A DNA stretch of 64,000 bases, from the IMG/VR virus record IMGVR_UViG_3300019886_000067, positions 16,398 through 80,397 of that record, one strand, 5' to 3'. This document shows positions 37,508-46,870 of the stretch, in pieces. The stretch comes from a virus. Position numbers and translations under genes: made by a program. The first letter of the stretch is position 1, and every line of letters starts with the position of its first letter. The notes below the pieces were generated by a model. It was given only the letters and a program-made list of their open reading frames with translations. It had not been told where the DNA came from and did no database searches.

Positions 37508-38950
37508 ATGAAGACAACTCCCGATCAGTTCATGGCGAGCCTTGGCTTGCCAGAGGTATATCGCGTTGGAGGTTCAGTCCGAGACGAAGTTCTCGGCCGG
37601 CGCTCCAAAGACTCCGACTATATGGTTCGGGGCTCCACGCTTAATGAGATTAGGTCGGCTGTCGGGCGCGCGGGTGCTAAGCCGAGCAAGCTCAAGCTAC
37701 GCACAGGTGTTGAGGTAGGTGTACGGGCCGCAGTCAAGGGGCTCGGCTTGCTTGAGATTGTTCTGCCGCGCACAGAGCGCTCAACTGGACCCGGCCGGCA
37801 CGATTTCGAGATTCATTGTTCGCCTGATATCCGACTTGAGGAAGATGCTCTTCGTCGTGACTTCAAAATGAATGCGATCTACCTCAACATCGCTTCTCAG
37901 CACTATGTTGATCCGCTTGGTGGGCTTGATGATATAAAACGTAAACTCATCAACACCACACATGCTGATTCCTTCAAGGAAGACCCGCTTCGCACGCTTC
38001 GAGCGCTGCGTTTCTGTTCTACGTTGCCAGGATTTTGTCTGTCAGGAACTACACACAACCAAATGTGCGACCATGCGCCGGCCGTAACTGGTCTGACGAC
38101 GAAAGGTGTCTCTGCTACCGCATTTGATGAGCTTTGCAAGCTGCTCATGGGCAGTCGGCCAAGCTTGGCGCTGGAATTGATGGCCGAAACAGGCGTTATG
38201 GCGGTTTTCCTGCCTGAGCTTGTGCCAATGCTTGACTTCGAGCAGCGTTCGCGCTACCACGAGAAGACAACAAGCAAGCACACGTTCGATGCTGTGCAGG
38301 CGGCGGCTAATATGCACCAACACGCGCCGCTTCGCGTACGTTTGGCACTACTTTTCCACGATTCCGGCAAGCCTTTGATGGCTTGGACAGGCGAGGACGG
38401 CCTTCAGCATTACTACGCGCTTGATCCAAAGCGAGCAGTAGAGCTAAATGCACCAATCGCCGCACTTGAATCACACGAGGCATGGGGCGTCAAGCAAGCG
38501 CACGCTGCTCTAACGCGCCTTGGCGCTCCAAAGAAGCTACGCCAAGACGTTGAAACACTGATTGCGCGCCATATGTTGCCGCTGCATGAGAACTTTAGGC
38601 CGATCAAGGTACGCAAGTTGCGTGCAGAGCTTGGCGACGAGCTTTTGCGTGACCTAATCACGCATCGGCTGGCTGATGTGCTCGGCAAGGGCGGTGACAC
38701 AACGGCCGCTGTAGAAGTTCTGACGTGGATTGCCAACGAGCAAGACAGGGCCATCGCCGGCCATGTGCCGCTAAGTCCGAAGGAACTTGATATAAGTGGC
38801 CGTGAACTTGTTGCGCTAGGTTTGAACGGCCGCGAAATCGGACGCGTGCAGAAGCAGCTACTACACGAGGTACTTGCTCAGCCTAAGCTCAACACAAACG
38901 AGTGGCTTGTCAATCGAGCCAAGGTCATACGCCACAAGGATATGAAATGA
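37508..38950 (+). CDS. cca: CCA-adding tRNA nucleotidyltransferase with HD domain
   Basis: YRVGGSVRD..LG..SKDSD, EDALRRDFKMNA, FKEDPLRTLRALRF, LALLFHDSGKP. Confidence 0.93.
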   Translation: MKTTPDQFMASLGLPEVYRVGGSVRDEVLGRRSKDSDYMVRGSTLNEIRSAVGRAGAKPSKLKLRTGVEVGVRAAVKGLGLLEIVLPRTERSTGPGRHDFEIHCSPDIRLEEDALRRDFKMNAIYLNIASQHYVDPLGGLDDIKRKLINTTHADSFKEDPLRTLRALRFCSTLPGFCLSGTTHNQMCDHAPAVTGLTTKGVSATAFDELCKLLMGSRPSLALELMAETGVMAVFLPELVPMLDFEQRSRYHEKTTSKHTFDAVQAAANMHQHAPLRVRLALLFHDSGKPLMAWTGEDGLQHYYALDPKRAVELNAPIAALESHEAWGVKQAHAALTRLGAPKKLRQDVETLIARHMLPLHENFRPIKVRKLRAELGDELLRDLITHRLADVLGKGGDTTAAVEVLTWIANEQDRAIAGHVPLSPKELDISGRELVALGLNGREIGRVQKQLLHEVLAQPKLNTNEWLVNRAKVIRHKDMK

Positions 38951-40777: not shown

Positions 40778-40987
40778 ATGAGCAACGTACAGGCCCTAGT
40801 AGGCAAGCCACTCACATTCTACGCCCGAGGCAAGAAGCGCAACATAGGCACGATCACGGATGTATCTGTCGTAGACAACGGCGTCCGATTCGCCGCAACC
40901 GTGACTGACAGCGAGGTAGCCAAGCTTCTAGGCGTTGATCCTCCTGTTGAGATAAGCGGTGGTGCTGGCGATGTCTCAAGCACCTAA
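40778..40987 (+). CDS. hypothetical protein
   Basis: TGGTACAGT-N6-ATG leaderless start. Confidence 0.55.
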   Translation: MSNVQALVGKPLTFYARGKKRNIGTITDVSVVDNGVRFAATVTDSEVAKLLGVDPPVEISGGAGDVSST

Positions 40988-41582
40988 ACTTGATCCTGCA
41001 AGTACGTGGCTTGTATCTGACACGCACTTTGGGCACGAAAACATCGTCGGCTTCGCCCGCCGCCCGCACGACCATGAGCAAGTCATTATGGAGGAATGGG
41101 CACAAACTGTTCCCGACGACGGAACGGTACTGCATCTAGGCGACTTGTCTTATAGAAATAACTCGTTCTTCAAGAACATGATCGCCAAGCACTTGACTGG
41201 CGCTCAGAAGCTCTTGATCCAAGGCAACCATGATCGTCAGCGGCCGAACTTCTATCGTGATAGCGGCTTCAAGATCGTTAAGCCTTTTGAGATTCGCTAT
41301 GTCACGCCGAAGGCTGGTGTCTGGACAGTCTCGTTCTCTCACTATCCCCTAAAGAAGTCAGCACATCCGCTTGCATCAGCAGGCGGCCTAAGACGCGTTC
41401 ATATACACGGCCACATTCACAATAACGGGTATGGCGGCAAGAATTCTCCGTTTGTTCCGTTCAGCGCAGGGCAAATCAACATCAGCGTTGAGCAGATGCA
41501 CTATCGCCCCTGCAAACTAGACGACCTTCTCAACGGCTACATAGAAGGTTGCTACGAGCCTCCGAAGGTCGAGGACAAGTGA
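40971..41582 (+). CDS. calcineurin-like metallophosphoesterase
   Basis: SDTHFGH, HLGD, GNHD, SHYP, HGHIH. Confidence 0.9.
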   Translation: MSQAPKLDPASTWLVSDTHFGHENIVGFARRPHDHEQVIMEEWAQTVPDDGTVLHLGDLSYRNNSFFKNMIAKHLTGAQKLLIQGNHDRQRPNFYRDSGFKIVKPFEIRYVTPKAGVWTVSFSHYPLKKSAHPLASAGGLRRVHIHGHIHNNGYGGKNSPFVPFSAGQINISVEQMHYRPCKLDDLLNGYIEGCYEPPKVEDK

Positions 41583-41929: not shown

Positions 41930-42007
41930 AATGGACAGAATACTTGCGTTTGCGCTACCTTTTTGCCCATACTGCAACTACATCCCGAGCTTCAAGTAAC
42001 CGCTGCT

Positions 42008-42337
42008 ATGCCCCGCGAAAAAGTTCTGACTGTTCGTATTTCTGATTGTGAGATTCAGACGTTCAAAGCCACCGGCAAAGGTGGGCAGAACCGAGACAAA
42101 CGCGATACGGCCGTTCGTATAATCCACCATCAGTCCGGGGCGCGTGGTGAATCACGTGAAGAGCGTGACCAGCTTTCCAACAAGCGCAAAGCCTTTGTCC
42201 GCATGGCGAACTCAAAGGCATTCAAGGACTGGCTTACAAGAGAGCATAGCCGTCGTATAGCCGACGTAGATGCCTGGCTTGATGAGCAGATGAAGCCAGA
42301 GAACCTTGATGTTGAGTATGGCTCGGATACCAACTAG
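42008..42337 (+). CDS. GGQ-domain peptidyl-tRNA hydrolase (release factor-like, no codon-recognition domain)
   Basis: TFKATGKGGQNRDKRDTAVRIIH..SG...REERDQLSNKRKA; 109 aa. Confidence 0.9.
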   Translation: MPREKVLTVRISDCEIQTFKATGKGGQNRDKRDTAVRIIHHQSGARGESREERDQLSNKRKAFVRMANSKAFKDWLTREHSRRIADVDAWLDEQMKPENLDVEYGSDTN

Positions 42338-42578
42338 CTCAAACAACATGCGTGTGTTTAGCGAAGCGCACAAACACAATAACCACTGGCTAGTTGAAGC
42401 TGAATGGCACGGCAAAATGCGGATTGTCCACAGTGGCCTTGACATCTACGCTGTACTTCGCTGGGCGACCCAGCATGGCTACCACGAGAAAAGCCCTGCC
42501 TAAAAGAGCAATTCTGCAACATAGTTGCAACAAAGCTAAATTAGACAGGACCGCAATGGACACCCGTCTTTCCAACGA

Positions 42579-42651
42579 TGCAACCTGTAGGAATCGAACC
42601 TACGACGCCCGGCTTTTCAGGCCGGCGCTCTACCGTCTGAGCTAAGGTTGC
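42579..42651 (-). tRNA. tRNA-Phe(GAA)
   Basis: Loop CTGAAAA. Confidence 0.92.
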
Positions 42652-42656
42652 TTGTA

Positions 42657-42728
42657 AGCGCGTGACGAGATTCGAACTCGTTCTTCTTGGTTGGAAGCCA
42701 AGTGTGCCGCCATGAACACTTCACACGC
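42657..42728 (-). tRNA. tRNA-Gly(TCC)
   Basis: Loop CTTCCAA; U73. Confidence 0.9.
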
Positions 42729-42803
42729 GAAAGGCCGGGCTCTCACCGGACTACAAGCGACCACGCTTGCCTTATGGGTCGGTACTTCCCGACAGTAACT
42801 TAA

Positions 42804-42878: not shown

Positions 42879-42945
42879 AGCCCCATATCGGAATCGAACC
42901 GATTCTAGCTGATTACAAAACAGCCGCCAGACCATCAGATAGGGC
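42879..42945 (-). tRNA. tRNA-Thr(TGT), degenerate D-arm (67 nt)
   Basis: Loop TTTGTAA. Confidence 0.7.
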
Positions 42946-43034
42946 GTATCCACAGGCTGCCTACTTCTCCTGCTAAGAGGGTCGGCATTTAAAAGGATGT
43001 CCAAAGCAATAAGGACAAGCATTCACCTGTTAGA

Positions 43035-43106
43035 AGCTGATGACGAGAGTCGAACTCGTAACCCCTCCCATACCAAGGGAGTGCTATACCGTTAAGCCAC
43101 ACCAGC
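43035..43106 (-). tRNA. tRNA-Thr(GGT)
   Basis: Loop TTGGTAT. Confidence 0.9.
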
Positions 43107-43187
43107 GGGCGTGGCGCTCTAACCAGATTTGAGCTACACCCGAGCAAAGCTCGCGCGGTGGGCTTCGATCCCACAACCTCCACTAAG
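43107..43187 (-). ncRNA. circularly permuted tRNA-like RNA (T-arm, closed acceptor, D-arm)
   Basis: GTGG-AGGTT-GTGGG ATCGAAG CCCAC-CGCGCGAGC TTT GCTCGGGTG-TA-GCTC AAATCTGGTTA GAGC-G-CCAC. Confidence 0.8.
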
Positions 43188-43260
43188 TACCCCCGCAAGG
43201 AATCGAACCTTGTTCGCTGGCTTAAGAGGCCAGTGCTCATCCTGTTAAAGCTTCGGAGGC
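43188..43260 (-). tRNA. tRNA-Lys(CTT)
   Basis: Loop CTCTTAA. Confidence 0.9.
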
Positions 43261-43675: not shown

Positions 43676-43680
43676 ATGAG

Positions 43681-43754
43681 TGGACAATCTCGGACTCGAA
43701 CCGAGGACTTCCGCCTTGTAAAAGCGGCGCTCTAACCAACTGAGCTAATCGTCC
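43681..43754 (-). tRNA. tRNA-Val(TAC)
   Basis: Loop TTTACAA. Confidence 0.9.
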
Positions 43755-43758
43755 ATAA

Positions 43759-43827
43759 ACGGGAAGGCTGGACTCGGACCAGCATCTACCGGCCCCACGC
43801 CGGCCGCTCTAATTGAGCTACCTCCCT
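43759..43827 (-). tRNA. atypical tRNA-like gene (Pro-like loop CGTGGGG), possibly a pseudo-tRNA
   Basis: Cloverleaf with A1:G72 mismatch, G33, short D-loop without GG, T-loop TCCGAGT. Confidence 0.55.
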
Positions 43828-43829
43828 AG

Positions 43830-43902
43830 TGGTCAATGCTGGACTCGAACCAGCGACTTCGGCGATGTCACCGCCGCGCTCTCCCAACTGAGCTAATCGA
43901 CC
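43830..43902 (-). tRNA. tRNA-Val(GAC)
   Basis: Loop GTGACAT. Confidence 0.88.
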
Positions 43903-46307: not shown

Positions 46308-46311
46308 ACAA

Positions 46312-46667
46312 ATGGGGTCCAGCCTGTAGCCGGGGTTCTGTTCCCAGGACGACAAACCCCTGGGCGACCACGATCTTTCTTACCGGGCTGACTAATTCCC
46401 GGCAGCCGTCCTATGACGTGCCGCTCCAAACCTTGATCGCCCCCGCTATGCTTCGGGCGTCTGTTCTTGGATCGCACCCAGCCTTGGCAACTCGCGCGTG
46501 CGCGCGTCTCGCGGTTCAAGCGTCCCGTGCTACTGTCCGCATCGCTCTCGCAACTTGGCCCCAACAAGGACTCCCGCCGGCCGGTGACGACGAGGTTAGC
46601 CCTCGTCGGGGTGCCCCGAACTTCCTCTCGCGTCCTTCAACCGCGAGCCGCAGTCCGGCTGGCCCAC
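46312..46667 (-). ncRNA. rnpB: RNase P RNA
   Basis: GAGGAAGTTCGGGGCACC (46627-46610) and AACAGAACCCCGGCTAC (46342-46326) form P4; P1, P2, P3, P5 and P19 can all be paired; about 355 nt. Confidence 0.88.
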
Positions 46668-46732: not shown

Positions 46733-46790
46733 CCGAAGGTTTCTGTACTTGGAGTCGTTAGACGATAATCCGTGTTGAAACCTACAAACA

Positions 46791-46870
46791 TGGAGAAGGA
46801 GGGATTCGAACCCTCGTCTTACCGCTGCGCCATTAGCGCGTTACACGGCAATCGACACCAAGCCTTCCCC
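46791..46870 (-). ncRNA. mini-tmRNA: tRNA-like domain only, no mRNA-like domain
   Basis: GGGGAAG/CTTCTCC-A with G3:U70, stemless D-loop ending GGTGTCGA, helix TTGCCG/CGGTAA, GAC linker, T-arm GAGGG-TTCGAAT-CCCTC. Confidence 0.8.

What the first reader, a model, noticed from the sequence alone, without database searches (positions are those of the whole stretch)
43107..43187. Circularly permuted tRNA-like RNA inside the tRNA operon
Seen: the 3' half of a tRNA (GTGG, variable AGGTT, T-arm GTGGG-ATCGAAG-CCCAC, acceptor strand CGCGCGAGC) comes before the 5' half (GCTCGGGTG, TA, D-arm GCTC-AAATCTGGTTA-GAGC, G, CCAC). The acceptor is closed by a TTT loop and the open ends sit where the anticodon loop would be, flanked directly by tRNA-Lys and tRNA-Thr. 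Established: T-acceptor-D order is the topology of bacterial YrlA Y RNAs and of permuted tRNA genes. No long Ro-binding stem or Ro gene is visible here. Inference: an anticodon-less tRNA mimic or decoy, or a precursor that needs end ligation and RNase P opening.
Basis: partly seen in the sequence, partly recalled or inferred. Interest (0 to 1): 0.8.

Follow-up and report, generated by a model that had tools for sequence, protein, structure and literature searches.

The report
Sealed anticodon-less tRNA mimic, phage array
A soil phage carries, in one slot of its tRNA operon, a 73-base gene for a tRNA body whose amino-acid end is sealed by a loop and whose anticodon is missing; the layout recurs in many other phages, but a close relative lacks this copy and its job is untested.

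Summary
Window 43111-43183 (minus strand, 73 nt, 4-nt spacers each side) reads closing stem GUGG/CCAC, variable AGGUU, 5-bp T arm, 9-position acceptor helix closed by UUU (8 paired), UA, GCUC/GAGC D arm, G26. It lies between tRNA-Lys(CUU) and tRNA-Thr(GGU). It is not a YrlA family member. It scores 22.5 bits against a gathering score of 69, no better than ordinary tRNA-tRNA junctions in the same array. It has no Ro60 gene, no handle and no GNCGAA motif. It does share YrlA's permuted topology. My own IMG/VR scan found at least 14 distinct modules of this architecture in other phage tRNA arrays. They show compensatory changes and perfect 15:48 tertiary-pair covariation, which ours matches, and 19 of 20 records lack Ro60. 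A related soil phage (about 85-95% identical in the aligned tRNA-array segments) has Lys(CUU) followed directly by Thr(GGU), so this unit plus one spacer (77 nt) is missing there and is accessory. I found no RNA ligase, RtcB or Ro60, so the "permuted precursor" reading is unsupported. Best reading (0.55): a stand-alone tRNA-body mimic released by tRNA processing and acting by binding a tRNA-recognising protein. Main rival (0.25): a dispensable relic. This scan has already noted the same kind of module on other DNA (82 unchecked notes, at least 76 genomes).

The parts
43111..43183 (-). The module proper: a 73-nt permuted, anticodon-less, acceptor-sealed tRNA-like unit
   Evidence: Sequence reading; MFE fold; best hit of model R1, 40.4 bits; weak YrlA module-only hit, 22.5 bits
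43180..43183 (-). Closing-stem 5' strand GUGG (equivalent to tRNA positions 40-43)
   Evidence: Pairs 4 of 4 with CCAC at 43111-43114
43175..43179 (-). Variable region AGGUU (positions 44-48); U48 partners A15
   Evidence: 15:48 Levitt pair consistent, as in all 14 IMG/VR modules
43158..43174 (-). T arm GUGGG-AUCGAAG-CCCAC (5 bp, 7-nt loop with A at position 54)
43137..43157 (-). Sealed acceptor helix CGCGCGAGC-UUU-GCUCGGGUG (9 positions, 8 paired, one G.G mismatch)
   Evidence: pair counts
43116..43136 (-). U8 A9 and the D arm GCUC-AAAUCUGGUUA-GAGC, with A14, A15, GG and A21
43111..43115 (-). G26 and the closing-stem 3' strand CCAC (positions 27-30)
43184..43187 (-). 4-nt spacer CUUA after the tRNA-Lys discriminator; expected 5' end of the released RNA
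   Evidence: the processing step is inferred
43107..43110 (-). 4-nt spacer GCCC before tRNA-Thr; an RNase P cut at 43106/43107 would set the 3' end
   Evidence: the processing step is inferred
43188..43260 (-). Upstream tRNA-Lys(CUU), no encoded CCA
43035..43106 (-). Downstream tRNA-Thr(GGU)
43107..43184 (-). Segment absent from the related phage in runs X4 and X5, where one C stands in its place (net 77 nt = unit plus one spacer)
   Evidence: Joint 43085->43185 with 24 letters between, in contigs of two runs; reading of those letters

Best explanation
The element is a small RNA gene that fills one slot of the phage's minus-strand tRNA operon. It encodes a tRNA body in circularly permuted order. 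The acceptor helix is sealed by a UUU loop, so it cannot be charged. The two ends meet in a 4-bp stem where the anticodon arm would be, so it cannot decode. Shown: the four helices; a full set of tRNA tertiary-contact nucleotides (U8, A14, A15-U48, G18 G19, A21, G26, A44, G46, C56, A58); its position 4 nt from a tRNA on each side; and the recurrence of the same architecture, with compensatory and tertiary covariation, in tRNA arrays of many unrelated phages that mostly lack Ro60. Inferred: it is co-transcribed with the array. It is then freed by the enzymes that mature its neighbours, with an RNase Z-type cut after the tRNA-Lys discriminator and an RNase P cut at the 5' end of tRNA-Thr. It folds into an L-shaped body and acts by binding a protein that recognises the tRNA elbow or body, as a decoy, competitor or adaptor. 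It is an accessory unit that is gained or lost whole, because a related phage lacks exactly this unit plus one spacer.
For: Anatomy and flanks. The two halves are a matched pair (0.3% of unrelated half-combinations do as well) and are not a recent copy of any tRNA in the window. Class evidence, gathered independently of the scan's notes, starts from an IMG/VR pattern that does not require any stem complementarity; it gave 41 loci. Of 31 distinct hits, 15 form both a closed acceptor and a closing stem, against a shuffle mean of 0.18 and maximum of 2. Most stem positions show 3-6 pair types. The orthologous units L013 and L014 (Lys(CTT)-module-module-Trp) differ by four double-sided compensatory changes in module 1 with no broken pair. 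L025 and L039 share closing stem and T arm (D arm differs at one loop base) but have entirely different, still paired, acceptor stems. The 15:48 tertiary pair is consistent in 15 of 15 modules including ours (about 5e-5 if the positions were independent). The same match holds for 34% of cross-tRNA junctions and 18 of 23 true tRNAs in this phage. The modules sit 1-3 nt behind a tRNA. TROVE is absent from 19 of 20 module-bearing records, including 6 of the 7 that are at least 90% complete, and from our record. The phage encodes a CCA-adding enzyme between its arrays, and terminator-like hairpins follow the last tRNA of the array. Literature: YrlA's tRNA-like domain folds as an L and is a substrate of TruB and DusA (PMC4201824; bioRxiv 10.1101/312249).
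Against: There are no expression, end-mapping or binding data. The only reachable relative of this phage lacks the unit, so this copy is dispensable in that lineage and no covariation could be measured for it. The T loop has A at position 54 instead of U, and the acceptor has a G.G mismatch. The acceptor 'loop' reads like an ordinary tRNA junction, which is compatible with a relic origin. Models R1 and RF02553 score true tRNA junctions almost as high, so model scores do not help. The class set was drawn with a pattern that fixes GTTCGA and GTAGCTCA and was then filtered on pairing. Homology of our unit to that set, as opposed to convergence, is not shown. The decoy function is pure inference.
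Confidence: 0.55

Rival explanations
1. Dispensable relic or hitch-hiker: the middle part (3' half, junction, 5' half) of two former tandem tRNA copies, or a unit carried in by recombination between arrays. It is transcribed and cut out but has no function of its own.
For: A related phage lacks it cleanly. The sealed end reads as a 7-nt acceptor strand, discriminator G, then CUUUGC and the next acceptor strand, like other junctions of this array. The T loop has A54 and the acceptor has one mismatch. The fold energy is not unusual. Other slots of the array are also swapped between the two phages.
Against: 21 of 22 stem pairs and all the tertiary-contact nucleotides are intact, although no close paralogue survives in the window. 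A relic origin needs two exact half-tRNA deletions that also restore 4-nt spacers. The relative shows no remnant at the site. The same architecture is maintained by compensatory change in many other phages.
Confidence: 0.25
2. RNase P-opened two-piece mimic, as in M. smegmatis YrlA. RNase P cuts 5' of the U that begins the 7-bp acceptor core, the CUUUGC tail is trimmed, and the phage CCA-adding enzyme tails the 3' strand. The result is an anticodon-less molecule with a free CCA end.
For: M. smegmatis YrlA, which has a 7-bp acceptor, is cut by RNase P and receives CCA in vivo (PMC4201824). Our helix contains a 7-position core plus a G73-like base. The phage has its own CCA-adding enzyme.
Against: Positions -1 and -2 are base-paired with positions 73 and 74 and are capped by a 3-nt loop, which makes a poor RNase P substrate. 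Acceptor helices in the class range from 5 to 9 bp, so opening is not a shared feature. There are no data.
Confidence: 0.1
3. A genuine YrlA-type Y RNA that works with a Ro60/Rsr protein supplied by the host or by the missing third of the phage genome.
For: The topology and the D and T arm sequences align to YrlA model positions 23-85. The record is only 66% complete. One module-bearing phage (G020) does encode a TROVE protein.
Against: There is no handle: only 4 bp close the molecule, and tRNAs begin 4 nt away on each side. There is no GNCGAA motif (motif definition). The score of 22.5 bits is far below the gathering score of 69 and no higher than junction artefacts. 19 of 20 module-bearing records lack TROVE.
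Confidence: 0.05
4. A true circularly permuted tRNA gene whose transcript is circularised and then opened in the acceptor to give a working tRNA.
For: The 3'-half-before-5'-half order resembles the permuted tRNA genes of red algae (background knowledge; reviews found).
Against: Joining the processed ends gives CCAC-GCCCCUUA-GUGG, a 4-bp stem with an 8-nt loop instead of a 5-bp stem with a 7-nt U33/R37 loop. The record has no RtcB, Rnl1, Rnl2 or Tpt1. A related phage does without the unit. The array already decodes broadly.
Confidence: 0.03

Closest known systems
YrlA Y RNAs (Rfam RF02553; Chen et al. 2014, PMC4201824; Wang et al. 2018, bioRxiv 10.1101/312249; phage examples in mycobacteriophages, CcrColossus, Bacillus phage G and Thermus phiLo, PMC12135203)
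   Same: Permuted T arm, closed acceptor and D arm order. tRNA tertiary-contact nucleotides are present. There is no free CCA end and no anticodon loop. The D-arm and T-arm sequences align to the model's tRNA-like module.
   Different: No Ro60-binding handle, no GNCGAAN0-1G motif and no Ro60 gene in the record. It sits inside a tRNA operon, 4 nt from a tRNA on each side. The Rfam score is far below the gathering score. Chen et al. discarded hits that overlapped tandem tRNA genes and required Ro60 within 4 kb, so their survey could not have reported units like this one.
Stand-alone permuted tRNA-body modules in phage tRNA arrays
   Same: Slot position behind a tRNA, 5-bp T arm, closed acceptor of 5-9 bp, GCUC/GAGC D arm, closing stem of 4-6 bp, 15:48 covariation, and no Ro60.
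   Different: Our T loop is AUCGAAG rather than UUCGANN, and our D loop is longer (11 nt). Ours is a single unit, while several others come in tandem. No sequence-level relative of our unit was found.
Circularly permuted tRNA genes of Cyanidioschyzon merolae and other algae (background knowledge; reviews PMC3400036 and PMC4090602 listed)
   Same: The 3' half is encoded before the 5' half.
   Different: Those genes yield complete tRNAs with an anticodon after circularisation and re-opening. Here no anticodon loop can be formed and no ligase is encoded.
Dimeric-tRNA junction artefact (the false positive described by Chen et al. 2014)
   Same: The T arm of one unit followed by the D arm of the next scores with YrlA-type models.
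   Different: Here there is no 5' half upstream and no 3' half downstream to complete two tRNAs, and the two acceptor strands and the two closing strands pair with each other.

Membership tests
YrlA (RF02553) | Reaches the Rfam gathering score (69 bits) | tested here: not met
   22.5 bits, model positions 23-85 only. True tRNA junctions in the same array score 26.1, 21.5 and 19.2 bits.
YrlA (RF02553) | Encoded within about 4 kb of a Ro60/TROVE gene on the same strand (criterion of Chen et al. 2014) | tested here: not met
   No PF05731 match in the 80,397-nt record. The record is 66% complete, so a distant gene cannot be excluded.
YrlA (RF02553) | GNCGAAN0-1G motif near the 5' end (proposed Ro60 contact) | tested here: not met
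   The only CGAA lies in the T loop and is preceded by AU. Only 4 nt lie 5' of the closing stem (motif definition).
YrlA (RF02553) | Long terminal stem (handle) joining the 5' and 3' ends | tested here: not met
   Only a 4-bp stem, GUGG/CCAC. The flanking tRNAs start 4 nt away.
YrlA (RF02553) | T stem-loop, closed acceptor-like stem-loop and D stem-loop, in that order | tested here: met
Stand-alone permuted tRNA-body module of phage tRNA arrays | Occupies a slot in a tRNA array, a few nt behind a tRNA | tested here: met
   4-nt spacers on both sides. The IMG/VR modules lie 1-3 nt behind a tRNA.
Stand-alone permuted tRNA-body module of phage tRNA arrays | Closing stem of 4-6 bp, 5-bp T arm, closed acceptor of 5-9 bp, and a 4-bp D arm with GG | tested here: met
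   4 bp, 5 bp, 8 of 9 and 4 bp respectively, against the class values.
Stand-alone permuted tRNA-body module of phage tRNA arrays | Tertiary 15:48 pair kept (G15-C48 or A15-U48) | tested here: met
   A15-U48. 15 of 15 modules including ours are consistent. Controls.
Stand-alone permuted tRNA-body module of phage tRNA arrays | Picked out by a covariance model built from other members | tested here: inconclusive
   It is the best hit in the window (40.4 bits), but a Val-Ile tRNA junction scores 38.4 bits.
Stand-alone permuted tRNA-body module of phage tRNA arrays | Conserved with compensatory changes in relatives of the same phage | tested here: not met
   The one reachable relative lacks the unit. 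Compensation is seen only in other members, L013/L014 and L025/L039.
Circularly permuted tRNA gene | Joined ends restore a 5-bp anticodon stem and a 7-nt loop | tested here: not met
   Joining would give a 4-bp stem and the 8-nt loop GCCCCUUA.
Circularly permuted tRNA gene | An RNA ligase is available for circularisation | tested here: not met
   No RtcB, Rnl1, Rnl2 or Tpt1 in the record. The one weak Rnl1 hit is the large terminase. Host enzymes were not testable.
Dimeric-tRNA junction artefact | The missing halves lie directly upstream and downstream | tested here: not met
   The flanks are complete tRNA-Lys and tRNA-Thr genes.

The most novel reading that the evidence does not exclude
Sealed, anticodon-less tRNA bodies are a widespread and so far undescribed class of phage small RNAs. 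They travel as single-slot cassettes between tRNA arrays. They act without Ro60 as decoys that tie up a host tRNA-directed nuclease, sensor or modification enzyme. This copy, directly behind tRNA-Lys(CUU) as in three other arrays, would be one such counter-defence unit.
Probability: 0.25. Interest if true: 0.8.

Novelty: new variant of a known kind. Interest (0 to 1): 0.55.

Why it matters
Phage tRNA arrays are usually read as codon-supply or anti-defence sets made only of decoding tRNAs. This unit and its look-alikes show that the arrays also carry non-decoding, non-chargeable tRNA-shaped RNAs. The tRNA-like head of Y RNAs therefore appears to exist and be selected on its own, without Ro60. 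That makes the open question of what the YrlA tRNA-like domain binds testable in a simpler molecule. The presence/absence difference between two related soil phages gives a natural comparison for such a test.

Tried and rejected
- The contigs of the 83% and 74% identical homologues of the neighbouring 286-aa protein (P0002, P0003) therefore could not be fetched.
- **GenBank phages:** no blastn match to the region. The best protein matches are 25-30% identical.
- **IMG/VR:** the CCA-adding enzyme found no relative. Two element-specific patterns found nothing.
- **Distant relatives:** the protein alignment A1 found only relatives 41-49% identical, and their whole records contain no tRNA at all.
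- **Metagenome collection:** the element pattern gave 0 hits. A1 gave only the same two contigs plus a fragment.
- **Rfam YrlA score and my model R1:** rejected as discriminators, because tRNA junctions score alike.
- **MFE z-score:** uninformative.
- **Acceptor complementarity alone:** not rare.
- **Weak Rnl1 hit:** it is the large terminase.
- **Breakpoint inside tRNA-Thr:** I first read the 99-nt/24-nt joint as a recombination breakpoint inside tRNA-Thr. The 24 letters are better read as one spacer base plus a divergent 5' part of the orthologous tRNA-Thr, so I claim only a clean 77-nt indel.
- **Sequencing runs:** no RNA holder listed. Parts of the stretch without contig cover in X2 and X3 are not used as evidence.
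- **Papers:** I found none that describes stand-alone permuted modules in phage tRNA arrays. Two Wolin-lab reviews were not held.
- **MAFFT alignments A2 and A3:** they were out of structural register and were not used for counts.

Full report
**What is there.** All tRNA genes of the window lie on the minus strand (33 by ARAGORN; 28 above the Rfam gathering score). Read on that strand, 43187-43107 is CUUA GUGG AGGUU GUGGG AUCGAAG CCCAC CGCGCGAGC UUU GCUCGGGUG UA GCUC AAAUCUGGUUA GAGC G CCAC GCCC. tRNA-Lys(CUU) ends at 43188 and tRNA-Thr(GGU) begins at 43106. The unit proper is therefore 43111-43183, 73 nt, with 4-nt spacers like those elsewhere in the array. Its energy is not unusual for the composition (z = -0.59). 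No tRNA is called on the interval.

**Tertiary contacts and the acceptor.** By standard tRNA numbering the unit keeps U8, A9, A14, A15, G18 G19, A21, G26, A44, G45, G46, U48, G53-C61, U55, C56 and A58. These are the contacts known from tRNA crystal structures (background knowledge). The one deviation is A instead of U at position 54. The acceptor helix has 8 pairs in 9 positions, with one G.G mismatch.

**Is it more than chance?** The 7-position acceptor core (6 of 7 paired) is not rare alone: 5-7% of unrelated tRNA-half combinations in this phage do as well. Together with the 4 of 4 closing stem the figure falls to 3 of 992. Neither half has a close paralogue among the window's tRNAs. The halves are therefore a matched pair and not a recent duplicate.

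**Is it YrlA?** Rfam's YrlA model aligns only its tRNA-like module (positions 23-85 of 114) at 22.5 bits, against a gathering score of 69. In a control over the whole array, the same model scores ordinary tRNA-tRNA junctions at 26.1, 21.5 and 19.2 bits. Chen et al. 2014 warned about exactly this dimeric-tRNA false positive. The phage record (80,397 nt, 66% complete) has no TROVE/Ro60 gene. There is no room for a handle, and the GNCGAAN0-1G motif is absent (definition). Membership of YrlA fails on four of the five features tested, while the topology is the same. Wang et al. 2018 describe most YrlAs as resembling circularly permuted tRNAs with closed acceptor stems.

**Does this architecture recur?** The scan's notebook lists many 'handle-less' modules in other phages. 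I treated these as leads and tested the idea myself. A module behind a tRNA puts two T loops about 30 nt apart, followed by a D arm, which tandem tRNAs never do. The pattern GGTTCGA-N27-38-GTTCGA-N19-33-GTAGCTCA requires no complementarity and gave 41 IMG/VR loci. Of 31 distinct hits with a GCUC/GAGC D arm, 15 form both a closed acceptor (at least 5 pairs) and a closing stem (at least 4 pairs). The shuffle mean was 0.18 and the maximum 2. Fourteen distinct clean modules were kept. They lie 1-3 nt behind a tRNA inside arrays of up to 37 tRNAs.

**Covariation within that set.**
- L013 and L014 are orthologous units (Lys(CUU)-module-module-Trp). Module 1 differs between them by four double-sided compensatory changes and breaks no pair.
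- L025 and L039 share their closing stem and T arm (the D arm differs at one loop base) but carry unrelated acceptor stems that are still fully paired.
- Most stem positions show 3-6 pair types.
- The tertiary 15:48 pair, which neither my pattern nor my filter constrained, is G-C or A-U in all 14 modules and in ours (A15-U48). That is 15 of 15, about 5e-5 if the two positions were independent. The same match holds for 34% of cross-tRNA junctions and 18 of 23 true tRNAs of this phage.
- TROVE is absent from 19 of the 20 module-bearing records, including 6 of the 7 that are at least 90% complete.

The class is therefore real, selected for a tRNA-like three-dimensional fold, and mostly independent of Ro60.

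**Limits of the class evidence.** My pattern fixed the T-loop and D-arm sequences. The set was filtered on pairing. A model built from three members (R1) ranks our unit first in the window at 40.4 bits, but a Val-Ile junction scores 38.4. Homology of our unit to the set is not shown.

**Relatives of this phage.** Public runs helped instead. X1 is probably the source sample. X2 and X3, from another study, hold short pieces identical to our sequence. X4 and X5, from a third study in 2025, hold a relative.

**What the relative shows.**
- A 17.9 kb contig in X5 and matching X4 contigs (e.g. a 1,958-nt one over 42578-42729) align to our array with 5-16% differences and the same gene order.
- There is a joint at 43085->43185 where 99 of our bases are replaced by 24.
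- Read on the minus strand, those 24 bases are one C followed by a normal tRNA 5' part (acceptor strand, UA, GCUC D stem). That part completes a canonical tRNA-Thr(GGU).
- The relative therefore reads Lys(CUU)-CUUC-Thr(GGU) and lacks exactly our unit plus one spacer, 77 nt.
- Other slots also differ. 42949-43033 is replaced by 29 nt, 42730-42801 by 70 other nt, 43757-43833 by 75 other nt, and 43679-43886 by 211 other nt.

The array evolves slot by slot, and this unit is accessory. The relative shows no remnant of two tandem tRNAs at the site, so decay in place is not supported. The direction of change, gain or loss, is unknown.

**Permuted-precursor idea.** The record has no RtcB, T4 Rnl1-type or Rnl2-type ligase and no Tpt1. 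The single weak Rnl1 hit is the large terminase. RNase P and RNase Z leave a 3'-OH and a 5'-phosphate, which RtcB does not join (background knowledge). Joining the ends would give a 4-bp stem with the 8-nt loop GCCCCUUA. I rate this reading at 0.03.

**How it most likely works.** The phage has a CCA-adding enzyme, an RF-1-domain protein and a phosphoesterase between its arrays. A near-threshold tag-less tmRNA lies at 46788-46870. Terminator-like hairpins follow the last tRNA of array 3. I infer the following steps:
1. The unit is co-transcribed with its neighbours.
2. It is released by the cuts that mature them.
3. It folds as an L-shaped tRNA body that can neither be charged nor decode.
4. 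It works by occupying a protein that recognises the tRNA body, as a decoy, competitor or adaptor.

Only the anatomy and the class-level selection are shown. Release, folding and binding are inferred. An RNase P-opened, CCA-tailed two-piece form, as in M. smegmatis YrlA, is possible for this 7+2-bp helix. It is disfavoured because positions -1 and -2 are paired, and because acceptor lengths in the class range from 5 to 9 bp.

**Verdict.**
- It is not a YrlA family member, not a permuted tRNA precursor and not a junction artefact.
- It is one more member of a stand-alone, Ro60-independent tRNA-body class that I did not find described in the papers I could search.
- This scan has already noted the class on other DNA.
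- The new information here is the clean presence/absence difference between two related phages, and the 15:48 covariation across independently collected members.
- Confidence that it is a working RNA of this class is 0.55; that it is a dispensable relic, 0.25.

Noticed in passing
window 43759-43827 (-): A tRNA-sized slot that ARAGORN does not call is a tRNA by Rfam (39.9 bits). Its anticodon loop looks non-standard. In the relative from X4 this slot is replaced by 75 other bases.
   Followed up: partly
window 42879-42945 (-): A 67-nt tRNA-like gene just below the Rfam gathering score (27.8 against 29 bits), with a very short D arm and UGU at the anticodon position.
   Followed up: no
window 42949-43033 (-): An 85-nt non-tRNA spacer inside array 3, which folds as a long imperfect hairpin. 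The related phage has only 29 nt here, forming a short hairpin-like palindrome.
   Followed up: partly
window 46788-46870 (-) and 46311-46666 (-): A tag-less mini-tmRNA just under the Rfam threshold (44.6 against 47 bits). Next to it is a very weak but full-length match to bacterial RNase P class A (19.1 against 100 bits, E 0.0014). A phage-encoded RNase P RNA is unverified.
   Followed up: partly
window 37508-38950 (+), 40959-41582 (+), 41963-42337 (+): A CCA-adding enzyme, a Metallophos_2 phosphoesterase and a 124-aa RF-1 (GGQ) domain protein lie between the tRNA arrays.
   Followed up: partly
L013:2740-3023 (-), L014:1954-2242 (+), L040:9106-9252 (-), and window 43111-43260 (-): In three independent IMG/VR arrays (L013 and L014 count as one) and in ours, the module directly follows tRNA-Lys(CUU). 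My pattern required GGTTCGA in the upstream T loop, so this may be a search bias.
   Followed up: partly
L013 and L014, just downstream of the first module: A second permuted module follows 2 nt after the first, forming a tandem pair. It also shows compensatory changes between the two phages (closing stem GCGAG/CUCGU against GCAGG/CCUGU).
   Followed up: partly
record of L009 and L023 (G020, 103 kb, complete), 88158-88397: The only module-bearing record that also has a TROVE/Ro60 gene (595-aa frame, 67 bits). It could show whether stand-alone modules and Ro60 systems coexist or interact.
   Followed up: no
window 43035-43106 (-): Our tRNA-Thr(GGU) has a weakened 3-bp D stem (GCUU...AGC) and a G5.U68 wobble. 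The relative's orthologue has a canonical GCUC/GAGC D stem and an A5-U68 pair.
   Followed up: partly
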